Assembly (NCBI GenBank): GCA_038087875.1
Contig: CM075993.1
Coordinates: 6,202,001-6,266,000, forward strand
Reading direction: 5' to 3'
From: Malacoraja senta
Lineage: Eukaryota
DNA: 64,000 bases
Both the position numbers and the translations under genes were made by a program. The notes under the pieces are model-generated. The model worked only from the letters and a program-made list of their open reading frames with translations, was not told where the DNA came from and ran no database searches. The stretch's first letter is position 1; the number at the start of each line of letters is the position of its first letter. This document shows, one piece after another, positions 1,707-59,613 of the stretch.

Positions 1707-2519
1707 TGTGAGGTTATCCACTTTGGTGGCAAAAACGGGAAAGCAGACTATTATCTAAATGGTGGCCGATTAGGAAATGGGGAGATGCAGCGAGACCTGG
1801 GTGTCATGGTACACCAGTCATTGAAAGTAGGCATGCAGGTGCAGCAGGCAGTGAAGAAAGCGAATGGTATGTTAGCTTTCATAGCAAAAGGATTTGAGTA
1901 TAGGAGCAGGGAGGTTCTACTGCAGTTGTACAGGGCCTTGGTGAGACCACACCTGGAGTATTGCGTACAGTTTTGGTCTCCAAATCTGAGGAAGGACATT
2001 ATAGCCATAGAGGGAGTGCAGAGAAGGTTCCCCAGACTGATTCCTGGGATGTCAGGACTTTCATATGAAGAAAGACTGGATAGACTCGGCTTATACTCGC
2101 TAGAATTTAGGAGATCGAGAGGGGATCTTATGGAAACGTACAAAATTCTTATGGGGTTGGACAGGCTAGATGCAGGAAGATTGTTCCCGATGTTGGGGAA
2201 GTCCAGGACAAGGGGTCACAGCTTAACGATAAGGGGGAAATCCTTTAAGACCGAGCTGAGGAAAAAACGTTTTCACACAGAGAGTGGTGAATCTCTGGAA
2301 CTCTCTGCCACAGAGGGTAGTTGAGGCCAGTTCATTGGCTATATTTAAGAGGGAGTTAGATGTGGCCCTTGTGGCTAAAGGGATCAGGGGGTATGGAGAG
2401 AAGGCAGGTACGGGATACTGAGTTGGATGATCAGCCATGATCATATTGAATGGCGGTGCAGGCTCGAAGGTCCGAATGGCCTACTCCTGCACCTATTTTC
2501 TATGTATCTATGTATCTAT
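1707..2519 (+). mobile_element. CR1-clade LINE, 5'-truncated (ORF2 C-terminus and 3' UTR)
   Basis: ORF 1695-2324 reads RDLGV..LYRALVRPHLEYCVQFWSP..RTRGHSL; CTATGTAT-type tail; splits an older CR1 3' end (1590-1700 / 2517-2550). Confidence 0.93.
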
Positions 2520-3949: not shown

Positions 3950-4145
3950 TGTGTAGGAAGGAACTGCAGATGCTGGTTTAAAATGGAAGATAGACACAAA
4001 AAGCTGGAGTAACTCAGCGGGACAGGCAGCATCTCTGGAGAGAAGGAATGGATGACGTTTCGGGTCGAGTCTCGACCTGAAACGTCACCCGTTCCTTCTC
4101 TCCAGAGATGCTGCCTGTCCGGCTGAGTTACTCCAGCTTTTTGTC
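3950..4145. mobile_element. Penelope-like element family A, inverted pair of 3' ends
   Basis: Minus arm and plus arm of the pLTR sequence meet within hammerhead helix II (GTTTCGGGTCGA|GTCTCGACCTGAAACGTC). Confidence 0.8.
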
Positions 4146-4207
4146 TCCTTCGTCATAGACATGATGATGCTTTTATCTCATCCATCCAGGGCGACTGCCA
4201 AAATCAA

Positions 4208-6019: not shown

Positions 6020-6187
6020 ATGGTAGACAAAAGTGCTGGAGGAACTCAGCGGGTGAGGCAGCATCTATGGAGCGAAGGAAATAGGCAACGTTTCTGAAGA
6101 AGGGTCTCGACCCAAAACGTTACCTATTTCCTTCGCTCCATAGATGCTGCCTCACCCGCTGAGTTCCTCCAGCATTTTTGTCTACCA
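6020..6187. mobile_element. Penelope-like element family B, inverted pair
   Basis: Two opposite arms joined at AACGTT|TCTGAAGAAGGG (hammerhead motif). Confidence 0.8.
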
Positions 6188-8318: not shown

Positions 8319-8518
8319 NNNNNNNNNNNNNNNNNNNNNNNNNNNNNNNNNNNNNNNNNNNNNNNNNNNNNNNNNNNNNNNNNNNNNNNNNNNNNNNNNN
8401 NNNNNNNNNNNNNNNNNNNNNNNNNNNNNNNNNNNNNNNNNNNNNNNNNNNNNNNNNNNNNNNNNNNNNNNNNNNNNNNNNNNNNNNNNNNNNNNNNNNN
8501 NNNNNNNNNNNNNNNNNN
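8319..8518. other. Assembly gap (200 N)
   Basis: Run of N. Confidence 1.
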
Positions 8519-11361: not shown

Positions 11362-11700
11362 AGATAGACGCAAAAAGCTGGAGCATCTCAGCGGGACAGG
11401 CAGCATCTCTGGAGAGAAGGAACGGGTGACGTTTCGGGTCGAGATCCTTCTTCTGTCTGAGACCCTTCTCGACACGGAATGTCACCCATTCCTTCTCTCC
11501 TGAGATGCTGCCTGTCCCGCTGAGATTCTCCAGCTTTTTGTGCCTATCTCCGGTTTAAACCGGCATCTGCCGTTCCTTTGTGTCTGAAGAAGGGTCTCGA
11601 CCCGAAACGTCACCCATTCCTTCTCTCCAGAGATGCTGCCTGTCCCGCTGAGTTACTCCAGCTTTTTGTGCCTCTCTGCTGTTCCTCCTTGCACATAAAA
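11362..11700. mobile_element. Cluster of PLE family A ends (inverted pair plus tandem copy)
   Basis: Minus arm 11362-11455, plus arms from ~11467 and 11582. Confidence 0.8.
11582..11613 (+). ncRNA. Minimal type I hammerhead ribozyme motif (PLE family A, representative copy)
   Basis: GT-CTGAAGA-A-GGGT(CTCG)ACCC-GAAA-CGTC-AC: catalytic core, helix II, palindromic ACGT in place of helix III, GUC triplet. Confidence 0.75.
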
Positions 11701-24880: not shown

Positions 24881-25415
24881 TTCTTGTATGGTTCTTTTGA
24901 GTTCTTTGCTAAAAGGTGAACTAACGCTCGCTCCTCAGCTGAGCGGAGAGGGCTCTGTAGATCTGATATTCTGACTGCTTTCCTTTCTCTCGCCAATATC
25001 AGTTCGTTGAAACACAGCTTTTAAGTGGAGCGAACTGTTCATTTGTATCAATGCAACCTTTCCCATTTAGACCGGCCTCGAGCTCTCTGCAGTATTTTCG
25101 GCCTTGGTAGATGAAATATTAAATACAATAAATAGCAATTTTATGTCTCGTTCCGGAGCTCGCTGCTAAATATTTTAAAAGGTGCCCTGTCTCTCCAGAT
25201 GTGCGTAATCGGTCTTGACGAACCAACAAAAAAAATCCCGGTCCGTGTAAATGAAACAGTTCCGCACTTCGCATTCATTTTAATTTACGCGAATCTTTAA
25301 AGGAAAAATAATGCAATATTATGGTTGCGGTCTTCAGATAACTTCCTGTTGTGTTTTCGAAGTTGACAACTTAAAAGGAAAGTGACTTTACGAGCTTTGG
25401 CGTAAGCAGTTTGCG

Positions 25416-25795
25416 TTTAAGAAGGAACTGCAGATGCTGGAAAATCGAAGGTAGACAACAGTGCTGGAGAAACTCAGCGGGTGCAGCAGCATCTATGGAG
25501 GGAAGGAAATAGGCAACGTTTCGGGCCGAAACCCTGAAGGAAATAGGCAACGTTTCGGGACGAAACCCTGAAGGAAATAGGCAACGTTTCGAGATGAAAC
25601 CCTGAAGGAAATAGGCAACGTTTCGGGACGAAACCCTGAAGGAAATAGGCAACGTTTCGGGACGAAACCCGGAAGGAAATAGGCAACGTTTCGGGACGAA
25701 ACCCGGAAGGGTTTCGGCCCGAAACGTTGCCTATTTCCTTCGCTCCATAGATGCTGCTGCACCCGCTGAGTTTCTCCAGCACTTTTTTCTACCTG
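25416..25795. mobile_element. PLE family B inverted pair with six 34-bp tandem repeats at the junction (25502-25705)
   Basis: Unit GAAGGAAATAGGCAACGTTTCGGG(C/A)CGAAACCC(T/G). Confidence 0.88.
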
Positions 25796-28466: not shown

Positions 28467-29270
28467 TTTGATCTGATAGGTATCGAGAGGAGTATATACG
28501 GAGGAGTTAGCGAGGAATTATTCCCGTGGCTGATGGAATCAAGAACTAGGGGATGTAGCTTTGAAGGATTTGGCAAAAGAATCAAAGGCAACGTTGGAAA
28601 GACGTTTTTTTTTCCGATGCATTTGGTGATTAGGGTTTGGAACAGATGGCCAGCGAGGAGCAGAAATGGAAACAATTAATTCAAAAGTATGTATCAGAAA
28701 GGTAAGGATTTGCAGGGCTTCGGTGAGTGGGTGGAAGAGTGGGGTTGGCTGGATTGGTCTTGCATAGAGATAGTATGGATTCAACGGGCCGAACGTCCTT
28801 CTACTCTGTGACTTGAACACTCTTCGAGTCTTCATTTGAGTCTGAAGAAGGGTCCCGCCGAGTTACTCCAGCATTTTGTGTCTATCTTCACCCTGGTAGT
28901 TCAAACAAGGACCAAATCCAAATACAAAGAACCCTTTTGTTCCTGCCCGTACATAATAACTATTTTTTCTTGCCTCATCCTTTGACTTGTGCTTGCTCTG
29001 TAATGAATGCTGTGTGTTCTGAGGCCCTTTCGTCGAGTCATAGAGCGATACAATGTGGAAACAGGCCCTTCGGCCCAACTTGCCCACACTGACCAACATG
29101 CCCCAGCCACACTAGTCCCACCAGCCCGCATTGGGCCCACATCCCTCCAAACCTGCCCTATCCATGTACCTAACTGTTTCTTAAACATTGGGATAGTCCC
29201 TGCCTCAACTACCTCCTCCGGCAGCTCATTCCACGCACCAAGTGAAAAAGTTACCCCTCAGATTCCTATT

Positions 29271-29550
29271 GTTTAAGAAAGAACTGCAGATGCTGGAAAA
29301 ATCGAAGGTAGACAAAAATGCTGGAGAAACTCAGCGGGAGCAGCAGCATCTATGGAGCGAAGGAAATAGGCAACGTTTCAGCCCGAAACCCTTCCGGGTT
29401 TCGGCCCGAAACGTTGCCTATTTCCTTCAGGGCTGCCTCACCCGCTGAGTTTCTCCAGCATTTTTGTCTACCTTCGATTTTTCCAGCATCTGCAGTTCTT
29501 AGATCATAGATGCTGCCTCACCCGCTGAGTTTCTCCAGCATTTTTGTCTA
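29271..29550. mobile_element. PLE family B three-arm composite inserted in a CR1 3' fragment
   Basis: 15-bp TSD CCTCAGATTCCTATT at 29256-29270 and 29551-29565; one inverted arm and two forward arms. Confidence 0.87.
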
Positions 29551-32968: not shown

Positions 32969-33728
32969 CATGGTGGCCGACTAGGAAAAGGGGAGATGCA
33001 GCGAGACCTGGGTGTCATGGTACACCAGTCATTGAAAGTAGGCATGCAGGTGCAACAGGCAGTGAAGAAAGCGAATGGTATGTTAGCTTTCATAGCAAAA
33101 GGATTTGAGTATAGGAGCAGGGAGGTTCTACTGCAGTTGTACAGGGTCTTGGTGAGACCACACCTGGAGTATTGCGTACAATGTTGGTCTCCAAATCTGA
33201 GGAAGGACATTATTGCCATAGAGGGAGTGCAGAGAAGGTTCACCAGACTGATTCCTGGGATGTCAGGACTGTCTTATGAAGAAAGACTGGATAGACTTGG
33301 CTTATACTCTCTAGAATTTAGGAGATTGAGAGGGGATCTTATAGAAACTTACAAAATTCTTAAGGGGCTGGACAGGCTAGATGCAGGAGATTGTTCCCGA
33401 TGTTGGGGAAGTCCAGGACAAGGGGTCACAGCTTAAGGATAAGGGGGAAATCCTTTAAAACCGAGATGAGAAGAACTTTTTTCACACAGAGAGTGGTGAA
33501 TCTCTGGAATTCTCTGCCACAGAGGGTAGTCGAGGCCAGTTCATTGGCTATATTTAAGATGGAGTTAGATGTGGCCCTTGTGGCTAAAGGGATCAGAGGG
33601 TATGGAGAGAAGGCAGGTACGGGATACTGAGTTGGATGATCAGCCATGATCATATTGAATGGCGGTGCAGGCTTGAAGGGCCGAATGGCCTACTCCTGCA
33701 CCTAATTTCTATGTTTCTATGTTTCTAT
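32969..33728 (+). mobile_element. CR1 LINE, 5'-truncated
   Basis: ORFs 32855-33436 and 33391-33630 are CR1 ORF2 C-terminus with a frameshift; (TCTATGTT)n tail. Confidence 0.93.
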
Positions 33729-34361: not shown

Positions 34362-34934
34362 AGGGCCTGTCCCACTTGGGCGACCTAATCCGCGAGTTCT
34401 GGCGAGTTTGCCCTCGACTCATACTCGCAGCATGGTCGACACGAGGTCGTAGGAGGTCTTCGTAACTCTCCTTCATGCTCGAGAGTGGTCTCCGCATCCT
34501 TGAGGCCTCAGCTAGGTCGCGGCGTTTTTTTCAATATGTTTAAAAAATGCCCGCGAGTAAAAAAAGGTCGCCATGGAAAAAATTGAAACTTTTTTACTCA
34601 AAGGTTTAGTTCAAGTTCAAGAGAGTTTATTGTCATGTGTCCCTGATAGGACAATGAATTTCTTGCTTTGCTTCAGCACAACAGAATATAGTAGGCATTG
34701 ACTACAAATCGTAGTCGTAGTAGGTCGGCATGTTAGCCGTAGGTAATCGAGGGTAGTCGAAGGTAATCGAAGATAGTCTTCAACATGGTCGAAGGGAGGT
34801 CGAAGGAGGTCGTCTTCACTCTCCACTATTCGGTGTCTAATTTTCCCGAAGCTAGTCGTAGTTAGTATTCAACATGTCATTTTTTCAAACTCATCTAAAC
34901 TCGCCAATTAGGTCGCCCAAGTGGGACAGCCCCT
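34362..34934. mobile_element. PIF/Harbinger MITE with a nested LINE tail (~34609-34707)
   Basis: TAA TSD on both sides; TIR AGGGCCTGTCCCACTTGGGCGACCTAAT; same family as 47208-47713. Confidence 0.9.
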
Positions 34935-35008: not shown

Positions 35009-35208
35009 NNNNNNNNNNNNNNNNNNNNNNNNNNNNNNNNNNNNNNNNNNNNNNNNNNNNNNNNNNNNNNNNNNNNNNNNNNNNNNNNNNNNNNNNNNNN
35101 NNNNNNNNNNNNNNNNNNNNNNNNNNNNNNNNNNNNNNNNNNNNNNNNNNNNNNNNNNNNNNNNNNNNNNNNNNNNNNNNNNNNNNNNNNNNNNNNNNNN
35201 NNNNNNNN
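35009..35208. other. Assembly gap (200 N)
   Basis: Run of N. Confidence 1.
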
Positions 35209-36740: not shown

Positions 36741-37199
36741 TCCAGCACTAATATCTGTCTTTATATAAAAAACGGCACTTCAAAGAAAAAAATATTTCAG
36801 ATGACATTACTTTGAGAATATACCTGCGTATTAAGGTTGTTATCACTTAATGAGGTGTCGTCAAAGTGTTTGGTCTTTGCAACTCCATTTTCACGTCCAT
36901 TATTTATTTGAAGAAAAAGTAATTAAATAACAGAAAGCAGAAAGCATTTTTTTTTAATTTTGTAAAACTATTAATCAGTTGTGTCTTTTGCAAAGACACG
37001 TTCAGAATGGCTGACCTGATGTTCAAAATAATGTTGATAAAGCTCCTCCATCTCGAATAAATTAAACGGAGGCCCTCTCGGTTTCTCCCATCTATCACTT
37101 CATTCAAGAGTAATGTTGCTTTCACCACAGCGTTGAGTTTCAACTGGATAATTAGCCCTGCCTGGGGGAGCAAAGTTCAAATGCAAAGGGTGAGAGGTT

Positions 37200-37331
37200 G
37201 GAGAGAGGGAGGAGAGAGGGGAGAGGGAGGGGGGGAGAGAGAGAGGCTGAGAATGAGAGATTGAGATAGTATGTGTGTGAGAGTGTCTGTGAGAGTGAGA
37301 GAGTGTGAGGAGAGTGAGGAAAGTGAGAGAG

Positions 37332-37425
<94 letters not shown>

Positions 37426-37531
37426 GGGAGAGAGAGAGGGAGAGAGAGAGGGAGAGAGAGAGGGAGGGAGAGAGGGAGGGAGAGAGAGAGGGAGAGAGAG
37501 AGGGAGAGAGAGAGGGAGAGAGAGGGAGAGA

Positions 37532-37615
<84 letters not shown>
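37200..37615. repeat. (GA)n-rich polypurine microsatellite
   Basis: Read directly. Confidence 0.97.
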
Positions 37616-37618
<3 letters not shown>

Positions 37619-38024
37619 GAATGAACACAGACATTTCAAGATGTCTAATTCAAGTGAGTTTATTGTCATGTGTCCCAGATAGGACAATGAAATTCTTGCT
37701 TTGCTTCAGCACAACAGAACATAGTAGGCATGAATACAGAACAGAACAGTGTGTCCATATACCATTGTATAAATATATACACACATGAATAAATAAAACT
37801 GATAAAGTGCAAATAAACTAATTCAAGATCCACCCCATTCTCTTTCAGTGAGCTGATCTTCAAAGGGTTTCTGTGAAGAGACAGACACGCCCGTAGTTAG
37901 TGTTATAGCAAGACACAAGAGATTTGCCAGGAATGTTGCTGATAAACATGTTTAATCTCTCTAGATTGGCAGCACGTCGCATAAACACACAAAGGACACA
38001 TATCAGCCAGGAACGAGATGATTC

Positions 38025-39298
38025 ATCTATGGAGCGAAGGAAATAGGCAACGTTTCGGGGCCGAAACCCTAACTGGTCCTTGATTAAGCTGCTGGACTTG
38101 CCGAGGCAGCGTGATGTGTAGATGGAGTCAATGGAAGGGAGGTTGGTTTGTGCGATGGTCTTGGCCGCGTCCACATCTCTCTGCGATTTCTTGCGGTCTT
38201 GGATGGAGCTGTTCCCAAACCAAGCCATGATGCATCCCCATAAAATACTTTCCACAGCGCATCTGTGGACGTTGGTGAGAGTTGATGGGGACATGCTGGA
38301 CTTCCTAAGGAAGTAGAGGCGTTGGAGTGCTGGAGTCAATGGAAGGGAGGTCGGTTGGTGTGATGGTCTGGGCTGCGTCCAAGTGGTTTGCCAAAAGGCC
38401 CGATTCCACGTCGAGTAACCCTTGTGACTCACTCAAGTGAAAACAATGTTGAAACCGCAGTGACAGAGGCAGCGAGAAACAGAAGAAAGTTGGGTCATTG
38501 GACACAAACAGATGTTGTGGTAGCGACAATTTGAGCCAAGCTGAGAGAAAAACTCCACAACGAAAACACATCAAAGAAAATACTTCTTGTTATCCATAGT
38601 CAGAGGCATCCATCAGCTTCTGACTCATCAAGACTGCTGGCTCAGTTGCCCCAAGCCATAGTGGCATTTAAGAGATTTTTCCATGGACATGCAGGGAATG
38701 GGGGGATATGGGTCATATGCATCAGAGGAGGGCAGTTTCATAATGTCATAAAAACTAAGGAGCTGATTGTGGACTTTTGAAGGGCACAACATCTGAGGAC
38801 GTACATGCCACTGGGGATAAATGGGGCTACTAGGGTGAGCTGCTTTAAATACCTGGGAATCCACATCGCAAAAGATCTGACATGGACAACACAGGCTGCC
38901 GCACTGGTGAGTAAAGCCTTTACCACCGCAGGCAGCTGAGGAAATTCAGAGTCTCTCTGAGGATCCTCCAGTGTTTCTACTCTGGGGCTGTGGAAAGTAT
39001 TTTATGGGGATGCATCATGGCTTGGTTTGGGAACAGCTCCATCCAAGACCGCAAGAAATCGCAGAGAGATGTGGACGCGGCCAAGACCATCGCACAAACC
39101 AACCTCCCTTCCATTGACTCCATCTACACCTCACGCTGCCTCGGCAAGTCCAGCAGCTTAATCAAGGACCAGTTAGGGTTTCGGCCCGAAACGTTGCCTA
39201 TTCCTTCGCTCCATAGATGCTGCTGCACCCGCTGAGTTTCTCCAGCACTTTTGTCTACCTTCGATTTTCCAGCACCTGCAGTTTCTTCTTAAACACTG
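38025..39298. repeat. Inverted/direct chimeric duplication of 40988-42012 bounded by PLE family B ends
   Basis: 38025-39000 is the reverse complement of 40988-41973; 38987-39257 is a direct copy of 41737-42012; TSD GAGATGA(T/C)TC at 38015-38024 and 39299-39308. Confidence 0.85.
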
Positions 39299-39375
39299 GA
39301 GATGACTCTCCTGATCTTGTGGCCCTTTTCTCATGTTTTCATCAGCAGTCTATTCCAAGAATCTTTCAACAGGGT

Positions 39376-40060
39376 TACATCGGCGAGTCCAAGCGTAGAC
39401 CGGGCGATCGTTTCGCGGAACACCTCCGCTCAGTCCGCCTGAACCTACCTGATCTCCCGGTTGCCAAAACACTTTAATTCTCCTTCCCATTCCCACACTG
39501 ACCTTGTCTGAAGAAGGGTTTCGGCCCGAAAACGTTGCCTATTTCCTTCACTCCATAGATGCTGCTGCACCCACTGAGTTTCTCCAGCACTTTTGTCTAC
39601 CCACACTGACCTTTCTGTTCTGGGCCTCCTCCATTGTCAAGAGTGAGGCTAAAGGCAAATTGGAGGAACAGCATCTCATATTTCGCTTGGGCAGCTTACA
39701 GCTCAGTGTATGAATATTGAGTTCTCTAACTTCAGGTAGCCCCGGCATTCCCTCTCTCTCCATCCCTCCCCCACCCAAGTCGCACCAGCTTCTCGTTCTC
39801 ACCCAACAAACAGCTAACAATGGCCTGTTTCCATTATCATTGTTACTTTTTTGCATATCTTTCATTCATTGTTCTTTATCTCTCCCCATCACCGTCTATA
39901 TCTCTCCTTTCCCTTATCCCTAACCAGTCTGAAGCAGGGTCTCGACCTGAAGCGTCACCCATTCCTTCTCTCCAGAGATGCTGCCTGTCCCGCTGAGTTA
40001 CTCCAGCATTTTGTGTCCATCTTCAATTTAAACCAGCATCTGCAGTTCCTTCCTGCACAC
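39376..40060 (+). mobile_element. Penelope-like element 3' part: GIY-YIG endonuclease C-terminus and pLTR (family A), with a family B insertion at 39506-39599
   Basis: YIGESKRRPGDRFAEHLRSVR..LPVAK(H)FN..KLEEQHLIFRLGSLQ..MNIEFSNFR*; nested TSD CCCACACTGACCTT (39492-39505 / 39600-39613). Confidence 0.9.
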
Positions 40061-40689
40061 TGAGATGTTATTGGTTAAGTTAGAGATACAGTGCGGAAAC
40101 AGGCCCTTCGGCCCACCGAGTCCGTACCGACCAGCGATCTCCCGTGTCATAATATCCCACTTTCGCATCCTACACGCGAGGGGCCGATGAACCTACAAAC
40201 CTGCACGTCTTTGGGATGTGGGAGGAAACCGGAGCACCCGGAGAAATCCCACCTATAATCAGTGTAGAATTCACTGCTCATTATAAAACCAGAAAACAGG
40301 GAACTGCAGCTGCCGGTTTACAAAAAAAAGGACACAAAGTGCTGGAGTAACTCAGGCAGCATCTCTGGAGAACATTGGTCGGGCTGAACAAACTATGTCT
40401 GAAGAAGGGTCCCGACCCAAAACGTCACCTATCCATGCTCCCCAGCGATGAGAGGAGGATGGGGCAGTTAGAGAGGTGGTTGTGGAACTGTCTCCGGTGA
40501 GAGGAGGAAATTCTCCCAATTTTATCCCCTCCCCTTCATCAGCCCTCTGGTTGTCTCCTCCCATCCCCCAGCCCTCGGGCTCCTCCTCCACCTGTTTTCC
40601 TTTTTTCTTTTCTTTCCCCACCCCCTATCAGTCTGAAGAAGGGTTTCGGCCCGAAACGTTACAAGAGACACAACACAACCGTAATTAGT

Positions 40690-41165
40690 CCCTGGTGAGA
40701 TCAGAGTTTACAGTCCTGATGGCCTGTAGGAAGAAACTCCGTCTCATCCTCAGCGTGACAGCGGAGGCGTTTGCCTGACCGTAGCAGCTGGAACAGTCCA
40801 TTGCTGGGGTGGAAGGGGTCCCCCATAATGTTGCTGGCTCTGGATCTGCACCTTCTGATGTATAGTTCCTGCAGGGGGGGCGAGTGTGGTTCCCATAGTG
40901 CGTTCGGCTGAACGCATTACTCTCTGCAGAGCCTTCCTGCCCTGGGCAGAGCAGTTCCCAAACCAGATTGAGATGTTGCTGGACAAGATGCTTTCTACAG
41001 CCCCAGAGTAGAAGCACTGGAGGATCCTCAGAGAGACTCTGAATCTCCTCAGCTGCCTGCGGTGGTAAAGGCTTTACTCACCAGTGCAGTAGCGTGTGTT
41101 GTCCATGTCAGATCCTCTGTGATAGGGACTCCCAAGGTATTTAAAGCAGCTCACCCTGTCCACAG
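40690..41165 (-). mobile_element. Rex1/Babar-type LINE fragment
   Basis: FKYLG..DLTWT..LRQLRRF..AVESILS..WFGNCSAQGRKALQRVMRSAER..SFFLQAIR. Confidence 0.8.
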
Positions 41166-41609
41166 TAGCCCCATTTATCCCCAGTGGCGTGTACGTCCTC
41201 AGATGTTGTGCCCTTCAAAAGTCCACGATCAGCTCCTTAGTTTTTATGACATCATGAAACTGCCCTCCTCTGATGCATATGACCCATATCCCCCCATTCC
41301 CTGCATGTCCATGGAAAAATCTCTTAAATGCCACTATGGCTTGGGGCAACTGAGCCAGCAGTCTTGATGAGTCCGAAGCTGATGAATGCCTCTGACTATG
41401 GATGACAAGAAGTATTTTCTTTGATGTATTTTCGTTGTGGACTTTTTCTCTCAGCTTGGCTCAAATTGTCGCTACAACAAAATCTGTTTGTGTCCAATGA
41501 CTCAACTTTCTTCTGTTTCTCGCTGCCTCTGTCACTGCGGTTTCAACATTGTTTTCACTTTGGTGAGTCACAAGGGTTACTCGACATGGAATCGGGCCCT
41601 TTGGCCAAC

Positions 41610-42400
41610 CGCTTGGACGCAGCCCAGACCATCACACCAACCGACCTCCCTTCCATTGACTCCACCACTCCAACGCCTCTACTTTCTTAGGAAGTCCAGC
41701 ATGTCCCCATCAACTCTCACCAACGTCCACAGATGCGCTGTGGAAAGTATTTTATGGGGATGCATCATGGCTTGGTTTGGGAACACCTCCATCCAAGACC
41801 GCAAGAAATCGCAGAGAGATGGGAACAGCTCCATCCAAGACCATCGCACAAACCAACCTCCCTTCCATTGACTCCATCTACACCTCACGCTGCCTCGGCA
41901 AGTCCAGCAGCTTAATCAAGGACCAGTTAGGGTTTCGGCCCGAAACGTTGCCTATTTCCTTCGCTCCATAGATGCTGCTGCACCCGCTGAGTTTCTCCAG
42001 CACTTTTGTCTATAATCAAGGACCAGACTCACCCCTGGCCACTCCCTCTTCTCCCCTCTCCCATCAGGCAAGAGGTGCAGAAGTGTGAAAACGCACACCT
42101 CCAGATTCAAGGGACAGTTTCTTCCCAGTTGTTATTTGGCAACTGAACCATCCTATCACCAACTGGAGAGCAGTCCTGAACTATTATCTACCTCATTGAA
42201 GACCCCTCGGACTATCCTTGATCAAACTTTAATGGCTTTACCTTGCACTAAACATTATTCAAGTTATTCCCCTTATCATGTATCTGTACACTGTGAAAGG
42301 CTCGATTGTAATCATGTATTGTCTTTCCGCTGACTGGTTAGCACGCAACAAAAGCTTTTCACTGTACCTTGGTACACGTGACAATAAACTGAACTAACTA
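41610..42400 (+). mobile_element. Rex-type LINE 3' remnant with a PLE family B insertion (41927-42012)
   Basis: QRLYFLRK..AVESIL.GCI.AWFGN; nested TSD TAATCAAGGACCAG; tail CACTGTACCTTGGTACACGTGACAATAAA. Confidence 0.8.
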
Positions 42401-42464
42401 ATCGAGTTCACACCATCTATTATCCTACAAGTTCAATATATTGTCATATACACAAGTACATTTA

Positions 42465-43141
42465 AGGGCCTGTCCCACTTGGGCATCAGTTGGTTCAAGA
42501 TTCAAGATTCAAGAGAGTTTATTGTCATGTGCCCCAGATAGGACAATGAAATTCTTGCTTTGCTTCAGCACAACAGAACATAGTAGGCATGAATACAGAA
42601 CAGATCAGTGTGTCCATATACCATTATATAAATATATACACACATGAATAAATAAACTGATAAAGTGCAAATAAACAGATAATGGGCTATTAATGTTCAG
42701 AGTTGAGTTTAATAGCCTGATGGCTGTGGGGAAGTAGCTGTTCCTGAACCTGGACGTTGCAGTCTTCAGGCTCCTGTACCTTCTACCTGAAGGTAGCGGG
42801 GAGATGAGTGTGTGGCCAGGATGGTGTGGGTCCTTGATGATGCTGGCAGCCTTTTTGAGGCAGCGACTGCGATAGATCCCCTCGATGGAAGGGAGGTCAG
42901 AGCCGATGATGGACTGGGCAGTGTTTACTACTTTTTGTAGTCTTTTCCGCTCCAGGACGCTGCATTTGCGCGGCATTTACGCTACATCATTTACGCGTGA
43001 TGTCACGTGATGCGCGCATGGTGCGTGGTGACGTAGGCAGTGACGCGCAATCGCACGTGTCGCCCCAGGATTTTGGGATGTACAAAATCTTCGCGCGCCA
43101 CCTGCGTGACGTGCAAATGCCGCCCAAGTGGGACAGGCCCT
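42465..43141. mobile_element. Harbinger MITE carrying a nested minus-strand Rex-type LINE fragment (~42494-42960)
   Basis: TTA TSD on both sides; TIRs; internal ORF ERKRLQKVVNTAQSIIG..IIKDPHHPGH..LPSGRRYRS..FRNSYFPTAIRLLN. Confidence 0.88.
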
Positions 43142-43470: not shown

Positions 43471-43668
43471 CACAGATGGACATGGGCGACAAAGAGTAGT
43501 TGCTTCCATTTACGTTTCACTGGGGAGTTCTTCCTCTGTTCTTGGCTCAGGCTGTTCATTGTGACCAGGAAATCTGCCCACGTCGGACAACGGCAACTTT
43601 ACCCTGCCTCCCACTGCTTCACTCGCTTGTTTTCACTTCAATCAGTCACTCAGAGTTAAGCGGCATTC

Positions 43669-43840
43669 CGACACTGACCTTTCTGTCCTGGGCCTCCTCC
43701 AGCGTCAGAGTGAGTGAGGCCCAGCGCAAATTGGAGGAACCGCATCTCGTATTTCGCTTGGGCAGCTTACACCCCAGTGGTATGAGCGTTGACTTCTCTA
43801 ACTTCAAGTAACTCCTGCATTCCCCTTCCCCCTCTATTCC
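43669..43840 (+). mobile_element. Penelope GIY-YIG C-terminal fragment
   Basis: EAQRKLEEPHLVFRLGSLHPSGMSVDFSNFK*. Confidence 0.85.
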
Positions 43841-54436: not shown

Positions 54437-54900
54437 TGTGGGAAGGAACTGCAGATGCCGGTTTAAACCGAAGATAGGCGCGGGAAAGCTGGAGTAACTC
54501 ATCGGGACAGGCAGCATCTCTGGAGAGAAGGAATGGGTGACGTTTCGGGTCTGAAGAAGGGTCTCGACCCGAAATTTCTCACAGAGAGTGGTGATTCTGT
54601 GGAATTCTCTGCCTCAGAGGGCGGTGGAGGCGGGTTCTCTGGATGCTTTCAAGAGAGAACTAGATAGGGCTCTTAAAAATAGCGGAGTCAGGGGATATGG
54701 GGAGAAGGCAGGAACGGGGTACTGATTGGGGATGATCAGCCATGATCACATTGAATGGTGGTGCTGGCTCGAAGGGCCAAATGGCCTACTCCTGCACCTA
54801 TTGTCTATTGACTATTGTCTATTGAAAAGTCACCCATTCCTTCTCTCCAGAGATGCTGCCTGTCCCGCTGAGTTACTCCAGCTTTTTGTGTCTATCTTCT
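54437..54900. mobile_element. PLE family A inverted pair split by a CR1 3' fragment (~54575-54823)
   Basis: The hammerhead GAAA is interrupted by CR1, and the PLE resumes at GTCACCCATTCC. Confidence 0.8.
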
Positions 54901-57413: not shown

Positions 57414-59040
57414 TTAGTCGGGAAGTGGTGTTGGGTAAATTGAATGGATTATAGGCCGATAAATCACCAGGGCCAGGTAGGCTGCATCCCAGAGTACTTA
57501 AGGAAGTAGCTCCAGAAATAGTGGATGCATTAGTGATAATTTTTCAAAACTCTTTAGATTCTGGAGTAGTTCCTGAGGATTGGAGGGTAGCAAACGTAAC
57601 CCCACTTTTTAAGAAGGGAGGGAGAGAGAAAACGGGGAATTACAGACCAGTTAGTCTAACATCGGTAGTGGGGAAACTGCTAGAGTCAGTTATTAAAGAT
57701 GGGATAGCAGCACATTTGGAAAGTGGTGAAATCATTGGACAAAGTCAGCATGGATTTACGAAAGGTAAATCATGTCTGACGAATCTTATAGAATTTTTCG
57801 AGGATGTAACTAGTAGAGTGGATAGGGGAGAACCAGTGGATGTGTTGTATCTGGACTTTCACAAGGCTTTCGACAAGGTCCCACATAAGAGATTAATATA
57901 CAAACTTAAAGCACATGGTATTGGGGGTTCAGTATTGATGTGGATAGAGAACTGGCTGGCAAACAGGAAGCAAAGAGTAGGAGTAAACGGGTCCTTTTCA
58001 CAATGGCAGGCAGTGACTAGTGGGGTACCGCAAGGCTCAGTGCTGGGACCCCAGCTATTTACAATTTATATTAATGAACTGGATGAGGGAATTGAAGGCA
58101 ACATCTCCAAGTTTGCGGATGACACTAAGCTGGGGGGCAGTGTTAGCTGTGAGGAGGATGCTAGGAGACTGCAAGGTGACTTGGATAGGCTGGGTGAGTG
58201 GGCAAATGTTTGGCAGATGCAGTATAATGTGGATAAATGTGAGGTTATCCACTTTGGTGGCAAAAACAGGAAAGCTATTATCTAAATGGTGGCCAATTAG
58301 GAAAAGGGGAGATGCAGCGAGATCTGGGTGTCATGGTACACCAGTCATTGAAAGTAGGCATGCAGGTGCAGCAGGCAGTGAAGAAAGCGAATGGTATGTT
58401 AGCTTTCATAGCAAAAGGATTTGAGTATAGGAGCAGGGAGGTTCTACTGCAGTTGTACAGGGTCTTGGTGAGAGCACACCTGGAGTATTGCGTACAGTTT
58501 TGGTCTCCAAATCTGAGGAAGAACATTATAGCCATAGAGGGAGTGCAGAGAAGGTTCACCAGACTGATTCCTGGGATGTCAGGACTTTCATATGAAGAAA
58601 GACTGGATAGACTCGGCTTATACTCGCTAGAATTTAGGAGATTGAGAGGGGATCTTATAGAAACTTACAAAATTCTTATGGGGTTGGACAGGCTAGATGC
58701 AGGAAGATTGTTCCCGATGTTGGGGAAGTCCAGGACAAGGGGTCACAGCTTAAGGATAAGGGGGAAATCCTTTAAGACCGAGATGAGTAAAAACGTTTTC
58801 ACACAGAGAGTGGTGAATCTCTGGAACTCTCTGCCACAGAGGGTAGTCGAGGCCAGTTCATTGGCTATATTTAAGAGGGAGTTAGATGTGGCCCTTGTGG
58901 CTAAAGGGATCAGGGAGTATGGAGAGAAGACAGGTACAGGATACTGAGTTGGATGATCAGCCATGATCACATTGAATGGCGGTGCAGGCTCGAAGGGCCG
59001 AATGGCCTACTCCTGCACCTATTTTCTATGTATCTATGTT
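57414..59040 (+). mobile_element. CR1 LINE, 5'-truncated, with complete RT domain (ORFs 57521-58285 and 58312-58947, one frameshift)
   Basis: KSPGP..NYRPVSLTS..QHGF..YLDFHKAFDKVPH..GVPQGSVLGP..FADDTKL; 4-nt deletion near 58275 relative to the copy at 1741-1756; CTATGTAT tail. Confidence 0.96.
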
Positions 59041-59613
59041 TCTTCTGCCTCGCCAGCAGTCTGTCTGTCCCTTCCTTCTCTGTTGTTTCTTTAGTATGTG
59101 TTAACATGTATGTTTTTAGTGTTGTTTAGCTTGTTTTTATGTGGGGGATGTGTGGGGGGGCGGGGATTGAGGGAAACCATTTTAAATCTCTTACCTCGAC
59201 GGAGATGCGACTTTTTCCGTGTCGTAACTCCGTCCGCACTGCGGCCTAACATCGTGGAGCTGGCGGCCTCCGATGCGGACCGACTTCGGGAGGTCCAACT
59301 GCGGGAGCCTGCGGACTTACCATCGTGGAGCTGGTGGTCCCTGGTTAGAGACCGACTTCGGGAGCTCCAAGCCGCCGGAGCTACGCGGGAGCTTCGATCG
59401 CCCCGACGCGGGAGAAAAATGTGGGAAGAAGATTGGACTTTATTGCCTTCCATCACAGTGAGGAGCGTGGGGAATCCACTGTGGTGGATGTTTATGTTAA
59501 CTTTATGTAGTTGTGTGTCTTGTTGCTTATTTAAATAATGCTTTATGGTAATTTGCATATCACGGCACCTTAATTGGTGGACGTGACAATAAAAGACCTT
59601 TGAAACCTTTGAA
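59041..59613 (+). mobile_element. GC-rich non-coding retroelement inserted in the CR1 tail
   Basis: Hairpins at 59198-59234 and 59450-59487; GTGACAATAAA plus (ACCTTTGAA)2 tail; homologous to 26129-26989. Confidence 0.65.

What the first reader, a model, noticed from the sequence alone, without database searches (positions are those of the whole stretch)
38015..42026. 1.27 kb TSD-bounded inverted duplication of nearby DNA, apparently made by Penelope machinery
Seen: 38025-39000 is the reverse complement of 40988-41973, including ~450 bp that I do not recognise as repeat. It switches at a 12/14 microhomology GCTGTRGAAAGYAT to a direct copy of 41737-42012 and ends with the full family B terminus (CCTTCGATTTTCCAGCACCTGCAG..CTTAAACA), which the donor copy lacks. 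Both ends are PLE sequence, and a 10-bp TSD (GAGATGAYTC) flanks the unit. The copies have diverged, so this is not a simple assembly duplication. Inference: cDNAs primed from both target strands began on PLE sequence, switched by homology to the neighbouring locus or its transcript, and joined. This would be a route for PLE-driven transduction of host DNA.
Basis: partly seen in the sequence, partly recalled or inferred. Interest (0 to 1): 0.7.

Follow-up and report, generated by a model that had tools for sequence, protein, structure and literature searches.

The report
Penelope insertion that copied neighbouring DNA
In a fish genome, a short jumping-gene fragment appears to have landed next to an older copy of itself and, while the insertion was being sealed, copied about 1.1 kb of the neighbouring DNA, partly back to front, which is a rare variant of known messy insertions and a clue to how these elements finish integrating.

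Summary
The structure is in the assembly as described: 38025-39000 is the reverse complement of 40988-41973, 38987-39257 repeats 41737-42012, a 38-nt Penelope-like (PLE) tail follows, and a 9/10 target-site duplication flanks it (chance about 0.2%). The right-hand locus is the donor. The switch is not random microhomology: it joins two oppositely oriented LINE fragments in codon register. Best reading (0.45): PLE reverse transcription began at the tail, the new strand moved onto the older pLTR copy 2.6 kb away, folded back at the LINE similarity onto the opposite DNA strand, copied 1 kb and was end-joined. Against two-strand priming on RNA: the donor lacks the tail, the arms overlap by 238 bp, and the left arm misses both usual PLE ends (44 of 47 pieces hit them). 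L1, R2 and rotifer PLE precedents exist. The copied DNA is mostly LINE debris. No reads, empty site or genome survey were obtained.

The parts
38015..38024 (+). Left target-site duplication copy, GAGATGATTC
   Evidence: chance estimate
38025..38072 (-). Left outer end: inverted, 3'-incomplete family-B pLTR piece copied from the donor; stops 38 nt short of the tail-less PLE end
38073..38386 (-). Inverted copy of donor LINE fragments (paralogue B; Rex1/Babar-type label recalled)
38387..38750 (-). Inverted copy of the low-copy spacer of the donor (about 41250-41610); part has a 61% match at 43482-43666
38751..38991 (+). Inverted copy of donor LINE paralogue A, now reading in sense
38987..39000 (+). 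Strand-switch junction: A-type to the left, B-type at both diagnostic sites of the 14-mer and beyond; gives an in-frame chimeric LINE reading frame
38987..39172 (+). Direct copy of donor LINE paralogue B (41737-41926)
39173..39257 (+). Direct family-B pLTR piece with the donor's own 5' junction; lacks the CTGAAGA hammerhead core
39258..39295 (+). 38-nt PLE tail, absent from the donor
   Evidence: tail defined in PMC11167929 and PMC8557442
39299..39308 (+). Right target-site duplication copy, GAGATGACTC, preceded by 3 unexplained bases
39372..40060 (+). Neighbouring 5'-truncated family-A PLE (GIY-YIG fragment, 3' UTR, pLTR with tail) holding a nested family-B piece with a 12-14 bp TSD; basis for calling these repeats PLE pLTRs
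40682..41250 (-). Donor LINE paralogue A, continuing past the switch point to its 3' end
41250..41610 (.). Donor low-copy spacer
41611..41926 (+). Donor LINE paralogue B, upstream of the pLTR insertion; carries a donor-only patch at 41822-41834 and a donor-only substitution at 41786
41927..42012 (+). Donor family-B pLTR piece, tail-less
42013..42026 (+). Right copy of the donor's 14-bp TSD TAATCAAGGACCAG (left copy 41913-41926); LINE B continues after it

Best explanation
A PLE insertion finished by DNA-templated synthesis from one growing strand. Shown by the sequence: the right-hand locus is the older template; the unit carries a tail the donor never had; both changes of template fall in homology; a TSD flanks the whole. 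Inferred: (1) PLE endonuclease made a staggered cut at GAGATGAYTC; (2) its RT primed on the bottom strand at the tail start of a true family-B RNA and copied tail and part of the pLTR; (3) the new 3' end paired with the older pLTR copy 2.6 kb away (86 bp of homology) and ran 190 nt into its flank; (4) inside LINE B it folded back onto LINE A, which lies in the opposite orientation 1.7 kb from the cut, and copied about 975 nt of the other strand; (5) synthesis stopped inside the donor pLTR and the end was joined to the left target end. Steps 3-5 use both strands of the donor, so DNA is the simplest template and host repair (or the RT acting on DNA) the likeliest agent. The product is dead sequence with no function evident.
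For: The right end is a usual PLE end and the left is not: 44 of 47 pLTR pieces of 40 bp or more end at the tail end (23) or the tail-less end (21). RT start sites flank the tail, and the RNA must extend well past them (PMC11167929); a donor transcript has neither. The crossover lies at the left edge of the best similarity block and the block is B-type (unit vs B 14/14 then 47/48; vs A 58/60 to the left), as expected if the strand grew right to left. The arms overlap by 238 bp. The template lies 1.7-2.6 kb from the site although the window holds 69 pLTR pieces. No one-directional substitution excess as RNA editing would leave. Precedent: L1 insertions with fold-back inverted duplications and locally templated DNA (PMC11702581 Fig S9-S10 legends); R2 cDNA ends priming on nearby DNA (PMC11371274).
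Against: It does not predict that synthesis stops inside the 86-bp donor pLTR. One other head-to-head arm (40397-40450) ends at the same GATG base as the left arm, which may mark a minor priming site; that arm and another short one were among the 22 pieces under 40 bp left out of the 44-of-47 count. An intact TSD is argued to favour priming of the second end before processing (PMC11702581). The crossover polarity is also allowed by two-strand annealing followed by mismatch repair. The three-copy part is less diverged than the two-copy part (2/225 vs 30/729, p=0.018, post hoc), which no model here explains. One event, assembly only.
Confidence: 0.45

Rival explanations
1. One reading: both target strands were primed by PLE protein. 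One cDNA began at the tail and jumped to the donor or its transcript; the other began inside the donor pLTR; both ran leftwards and annealed at the LINE A/B similarity.
For: PAc cleaves and extends both strands and is modelled as a dimer. Both arms need only the + strand as template. Both outer ends are pLTR sequence. In 6 of 8 head-to-head pairs in the window both arms end at usual PLE ends (my reading of the table), so two-ended priming looks routine here. The left arm's end recurs once. L1 makes opposite-orientation chimeras from two RNAs.
Against: PAc uses the same RT start sites on both strands and the left arm uses neither. 1 nt of microhomology at the left junction, against 2 or more in 71% of L1 cases; 238-bp overlap against 1-10 bp. 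No host exon was found to suggest a + strand transcript (109 open frames scanned: one LINE-domain hit, one weak unrelated hit), though short exons would be missed.
Confidence: 0.27
2. Two steps: an ordinary short or palindromic pLTR insertion made the TSD and tail; later a break inside it was repaired by strand invasion of the nearby pLTR copy (synthesis-dependent annealing or replication template switching). PLE machinery supplied only the homology.
For: Eight head-to-head pLTR pairs lie in the window, one with a 13-15 bp TSD (29270-29548): a ready precursor. Short palindromes are break-prone (recalled). It explains tail, TSD, pLTR at both ends and the nearby template without any RT jump.
Against: A palindrome precursor should usually leave both outer ends at the usual positions (6 of 8 pairs); a simple precursor needs the left remnant trimmed to the TSD. 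Divergence of the unit (3.4%) is like that among family-B copies (93-96% identity), leaving little sign of a long gap, though not excluding one.
Confidence: 0.22
3. Assembly artefact or coincidence: a chimeric or fold-back read, a haplotype mix, or a chance TSD around an unrelated rearrangement.
For: No reads were laid and no second assembly was seen. Three GAGATG words lie next to PLE ends in this region, so the TSD pairing is not unique.
Against: 3.4% divergence spread along 960 bp, donor-only changes with both arms keeping the older state, an added tail, an in-frame paralogue junction, and TSD chance of about 0.2%. No assembly gap nearer than 35208.
Confidence: 0.06

Closest known systems
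PLE insertions with inverted pLTRs, tail and TSD, and host DNA captured between pLTRs (Adineta vaga; Arkhipova et al. 2013, PMC3846280; passages and two sections read)
   Same: Head-to-head pLTRs, 30-40 nt tail on one end, 8-10 bp TSD, unrelated sequence between pLTRs.
   Different: There the cargo (an intron-bearing NRPS gene) lies between direct pLTRs at a new location with a verified empty site. Here the cargo is the flank of a pLTR copy 2.6 kb away, copied twice in opposite directions and joined at a LINE similarity; no empty site seen.
L1 insertions with fold-back inversions, inverted duplications and locally templated DNA (PMC11702581; passages, sections 6-7, part 3 of 5 of supplement 1)
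   Same: Retrotransposon end on one side, nearby genomic DNA inverted or duplicated, short homology (6-14 bp) at the fold-back.
   Different: Somatic, induced L1 in human cells; there the reciprocal target end folds back on adjacent DNA. Here the element is a PLE, the event is in an assembled fish genome, and entry to the template is through an older element copy.
R2 snap-back 5' junctions (PMC11371274; passages)
   Same: cDNA 3' end primes further synthesis on cDNA or nearby target-locus DNA before the 5' junction forms.
   Different: Engineered site-specific insertions in rDNA; here two successive switches are needed.
L1 twin priming (as described in PMC11702581 and PMC13174262; original paper not read)
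   Same: Two segments in opposite orientation inside a preserved TSD.
   Different: One RNA cannot supply both arms and the tail; overlap is 238 bp; 1 nt microhomology at the second end.

Membership tests
Penelope-like element (PLE) insertion | Terminal repeat belongs to an element encoding RT plus GIY-YIG endonuclease | tested here: met
   Indirect. The frame at 39307-39474 hit 14 proteins; 8 have a GIY-YIG Pfam match, 2 an RT match; P0036 has RT then the endonuclease region. That fragment runs into family-A pLTR; family B is 79% like A. No family-B ORF was found.
Penelope-like element (PLE) insertion | Optional 30-40 nt tail at one end | tested here: met
   38 nt at 39258-39295; two 3' end classes in the window, 23 and 21 of 47.
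Penelope-like element (PLE) insertion | Short TSD | tested here: met
   10 bp, 9/10; 9-15 bp repeats flank 5 of 10 single copies and 1 of 7 pairs examined.
Penelope-like element (PLE) insertion | Hammerhead motif in the pLTR | tested here: inconclusive
   CTGAAGA..GAAA core visible in fuller family copies but cut off in donor and both arms; Rfam gave 0 matches in 37000-43000.
Penelope-like element (PLE) insertion | Both outer ends at PLE RT start sites, as two-ended PLE priming predicts | tested here: not met
   Left arm stops 38 nt short of the tail-less end; the same position recurs once.
Twin priming (L1 type) | Inversion inside a preserved TSD | tested here: met
Twin priming (L1 type) | Breakpoints of the two arms within 1-10 bp on one RNA | tested here: not met
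   238-bp overlap, 41737-41974; L1 range.
Twin priming (L1 type) | RNA template (lost introns, editing, transcribed strand) | tested here: inconclusive
   No intron to test; substitutions show no one-way excess; host transcription strand unknown.
Retrotransposon transduction (flank carried on the source element's transcript) | All element sequence in the new copy is present in the source copy | tested here: not met
   Tail absent from donor.
Retrotransposon transduction (flank carried on the source element's transcript) | Empty site collapses to one TSD copy | not tested
   No reads or orthologue obtained; a 22-nt flank motif found 0 matches in metagenome contigs.
Locally templated insertion / snap-back at a retrotransposon 5' junction | Template within a few kb, homology at each switch | tested here: met
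   1.7-2.6 kb; 86 bp pLTR and 12/14 LINE block.
Locally templated insertion / snap-back at a retrotransposon 5' junction | Formed in the same event as the insertion, by DNA-templated synthesis | not testable with these tools
   Needs alleles, orthologues or an insertion assay.

The most novel reading that the evidence does not exclude
PLE cDNA ends routinely seek out older copies of their own pLTR nearby and use them as entry points to copy flanking DNA, so each pLTR relic (69 pieces in this 64 kb) is a latent handle for local duplication, inversion and in-frame joining of paralogous sequences; in its boldest form the PLE dimer itself extends both target strands and jumps from its RNA onto chromosomal DNA or nascent RNA.
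Probability: 0.2. Interest if true: 0.7.

Novelty: new variant of a known kind. Interest (0 to 1): 0.4.

Why it matters
How PLEs complete integration and make their inverted structures is stated to be unresolved (PMC8557442, PMC11167929). Ordinary pLTR palindromes cannot tell priming from fold-back because both arms are element sequence. Here the arms run into low-copy flanking DNA, so template, direction and switch points can be read. A set of such loci would test RNA versus DNA templates directly and show whether PLEs drive local duplication in genomes rich in them. This single copy moved no recognisable gene and has no evident function.

Tried and rejected
Whole genome: none held, so no genome survey. 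Sequencing runs: 21 listed, 20 holding 0.27-0.48 of the words; none was laid, so they are not evidence. Metagenome and viral contig scans with a flank motif and a pLTR motif: 0 matches. Rfam: 0 matches. Host gene: 109 of the 149 open frames of 45 aa or more in unmasked DNA were scanned in Pfam; one LINE-domain hit and one weak unrelated hit. Protein search with 43500-43808 for longer relatives: none. Reverse direction (left unit as donor): rejected, since the right locus has the rest of both LINEs and the pLTR's own TSD. Error-prone or edited copying as the source of divergence: spectrum mixed, 21 transitions of 32; a 9-substitution cluster in 55 bp (p=0.004) is unexplained. Dating with the epaulette shark rate (7e-10 per generation, abstract of PMC10587355) gives about 10^7 generations and is not trusted. 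Other local captures: of 9 local low-copy matches listed, 3 are this unit and the other 6 have no pLTR ends. PMC9977147 (passages) did not bear on it; the retrozyme preprint 10.64898/2026.07.22.740005 was seen as abstract only.
Full report
Setting. The window is repeat-rich (70% masked) animal DNA. A LINE frame from the unit hit 25 proteins with PF09004 and often RT domains, the best named ones from a skate and from bony fishes, so a cartilaginous fish is likely (inference). The label Rex1/Babar for these LINEs is recalled, not from a call. No whole genome is held and no reads were laid, so everything below rests on the assembly.

Observation. Self-comparison gives three strong local matches: 38024-39039 against 41974-40949 (inverted), 38987-39257 against 41737-42012 (direct), and the two arms against each other over 235 bp at 98.7%. 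The inverted arm differs from the donor by 32 substitutions, 3 small indels and one patch; the direct arm by 1 substitution, 1 indel and the same patch. A 38-nt terminus follows at 39258-39295, then CTG, then GAGATGACTC, matching GAGATGATTC at 38015-38024. Such a match arose in 314 of 152,703 random pairs once low-complexity flanks were set aside, 4,505 of 200,000 otherwise.

Direction. The right-hand pLTR piece (41927-42012) sits in a LINE between perfect 14-bp repeats, and the LINE continues beyond. Both arms of the unit carry that insertion's 5' junction, and both keep the older state at two places where the donor alone has changed (41786, 41822-41834). The donor is therefore older and the unit derived.

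The repeats are PLE pLTRs. The frame at 39307-39474 hit 14 proteins, 8 with a GIY-YIG match and 2 with RT; P0036 has the RT-then-endonuclease order. This fragment leads into family-A pLTR, and family B is 79% like it. The window has 69 pLTR pieces; of the 47 of 40 bp or more, 23 end at the tail end, 21 at a tail-less end about 38 nt earlier and 3 elsewhere (donor and both arms included). This fits the two RT start sites that bound the PLE tail (PMC11167929, main text read). Of the 3 exceptions one is an alignment overrun, one a 70% relic and one the unit's left arm. The 22 shorter pieces left out include two short arms of head-to-head pairs that also end elsewhere, one at the same GATG base as the left arm; this weakens the point and may mark a minor start site.

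The switch. The two donor LINE fragments lie in opposite orientation and the junction joins them at the same codon, giving an open chimeric frame. The unit matches A at 58 of 60 bases to the left, B at 14 of 14 in the block and 47 of 48 after it; A and B match each other at 26/60, 12/14 and 27/48. Only two blocks of 12/14 or better exist between the opposite strands, both in this register. A strand growing from the right would carry B sequence up to its 3' end and cross at the left edge, as seen. A strand from the left would have had 5 matched bases behind it. Two annealed strands could give either result.

The cargo. About 780 of 1,150 copied bases are LINE fragments. Of the remaining spacer, 190 bp match 43482-43666 at 61%, so it is an old repeat or old local duplicate and not clearly unique. 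One + frame covering part of it had no Pfam hit. No host exon was recognised in the window.

Mechanism. Tail and TSD point to a PLE cut and a true PLE RNA, because the donor has no tail and PAc needs RNA well beyond its start sites. From there three routes give the same map. One strand can enter the donor by pLTR homology, fold back at the LINE block and be end-joined (0.45); this accounts for the odd left end, the 238-bp overlap, the crossover side and the nearness of the template, but not for stopping inside the donor pLTR. Both strands can be primed and meet at the LINE block (0.27); PAc does extend both strands, 6 of 8 head-to-head pairs here have two usual ends (my reading), and a kept TSD suits early priming. 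Or a small insertion came first and a later break was repaired from the donor (0.22); a TSD-flanked palindrome at 29270-29548 shows such a precursor exists. An artefact is unlikely (0.06). Unexplained under all: lower divergence in the three-copy part (2/225 vs 30/729, p=0.018, post hoc) and a cluster of 9 substitutions in 55 bp.

What is known. Inverted pLTRs, tails, TSDs and capture of host DNA between pLTRs are described in Adineta vaga (PMC3846280: passages and sections 9 and 11) and generally (PMC8557442: passages). L1 insertions with inverted duplications and nearby templated DNA are described (PMC11702581: passages, sections 6 and 7, supplement part 3 of 5), as are R2 snap-back junctions (PMC11371274: passages) and twin-primed chimeras (PMC13174262: passages). 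Seven searches listed no PLE insertion that copies its neighbourhood through an older pLTR; the library lacks most subscription papers, and supplements other than the one named were not seen, so this is weak evidence of absence. Earlier scan notes on shark pLTR palindromes agree on the background and are not independent support.

Verdict. A real-looking, old, single event: a new variant of known non-canonical retrotransposon insertions, in a family whose integration is still unsolved. It works like a snap-back or locally templated insertion; it fails the tests for L1-type twin priming and for ordinary transduction. Interest 0.4; 0.7 if a genome survey shows the route is common.

Noticed in passing
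window 3950-4155, 6022-6186, 11362-11578, 23347-23529, 25415-25794, 29270-29548, 40300-40450, 54441-54574: Eight head-to-head pLTR pairs; a clear TSD in 1 of the 7 examined. The 25.4 kb pair has a run of 34-bp tandem copies at its centre; at 6.0-6.2 kb the inverted symmetry runs about 9 nt into the flanks.
   Followed up: partly
window 40397-40450 and 38024-38072: Two unrelated pLTR arms end at the same GATG base, neither usual end; possible minor priming or break site.
   Followed up: partly
window 39293-39304 and 40056-40068: The bases after the unit's tail (ACACTGGAGATG) nearly repeat those after the neighbouring family-A tail (ACACTGAGATG); could be a remnant TSD of the family-A element or chance.
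   Followed up: no
window 38016-38028: A 6-bp inverted repeat with 1-nt spacer (AGATGA T TCATCT) spans the left junction; may reflect short fold-back synthesis during joining, or chance.
   Followed up: no
window 41822-41834: Donor-only patch that copies a word from about 40 bp upstream, a later local template slip.
   Followed up: partly
window 41398-41587 and 43482-43666: 61% similar low-copy stretches 2 kb apart; old repeat or old duplication, no convincing protein-level match.
   Followed up: partly
window 19058-19086: 29 extra bases between TSD and a family-B pLTR piece; no template within 6 kb (best 12 mismatches of 29).
   Followed up: yes
window 17400-22700 (-): Near full-length LINE with long frames (535, 306, 146 aa and a gag-like 5' frame); Tx1-like label recalled.
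   Followed up: no
window 37635-37818, 42494-42676, 34610-34706: A 185-bp repeat end, 96% identical, lies in direct orientation on both sides of the locus, with a third partial copy; probably family copies.
   Followed up: no
window 1707-2517, 32970-33728, 57455-59044: CR1-like LINE pieces 95-97% identical (label recalled), the longest with RT frames.
   Followed up: no
window 8319-8518, 35009-35208: Two 200-base assembly gaps.
   Followed up: no
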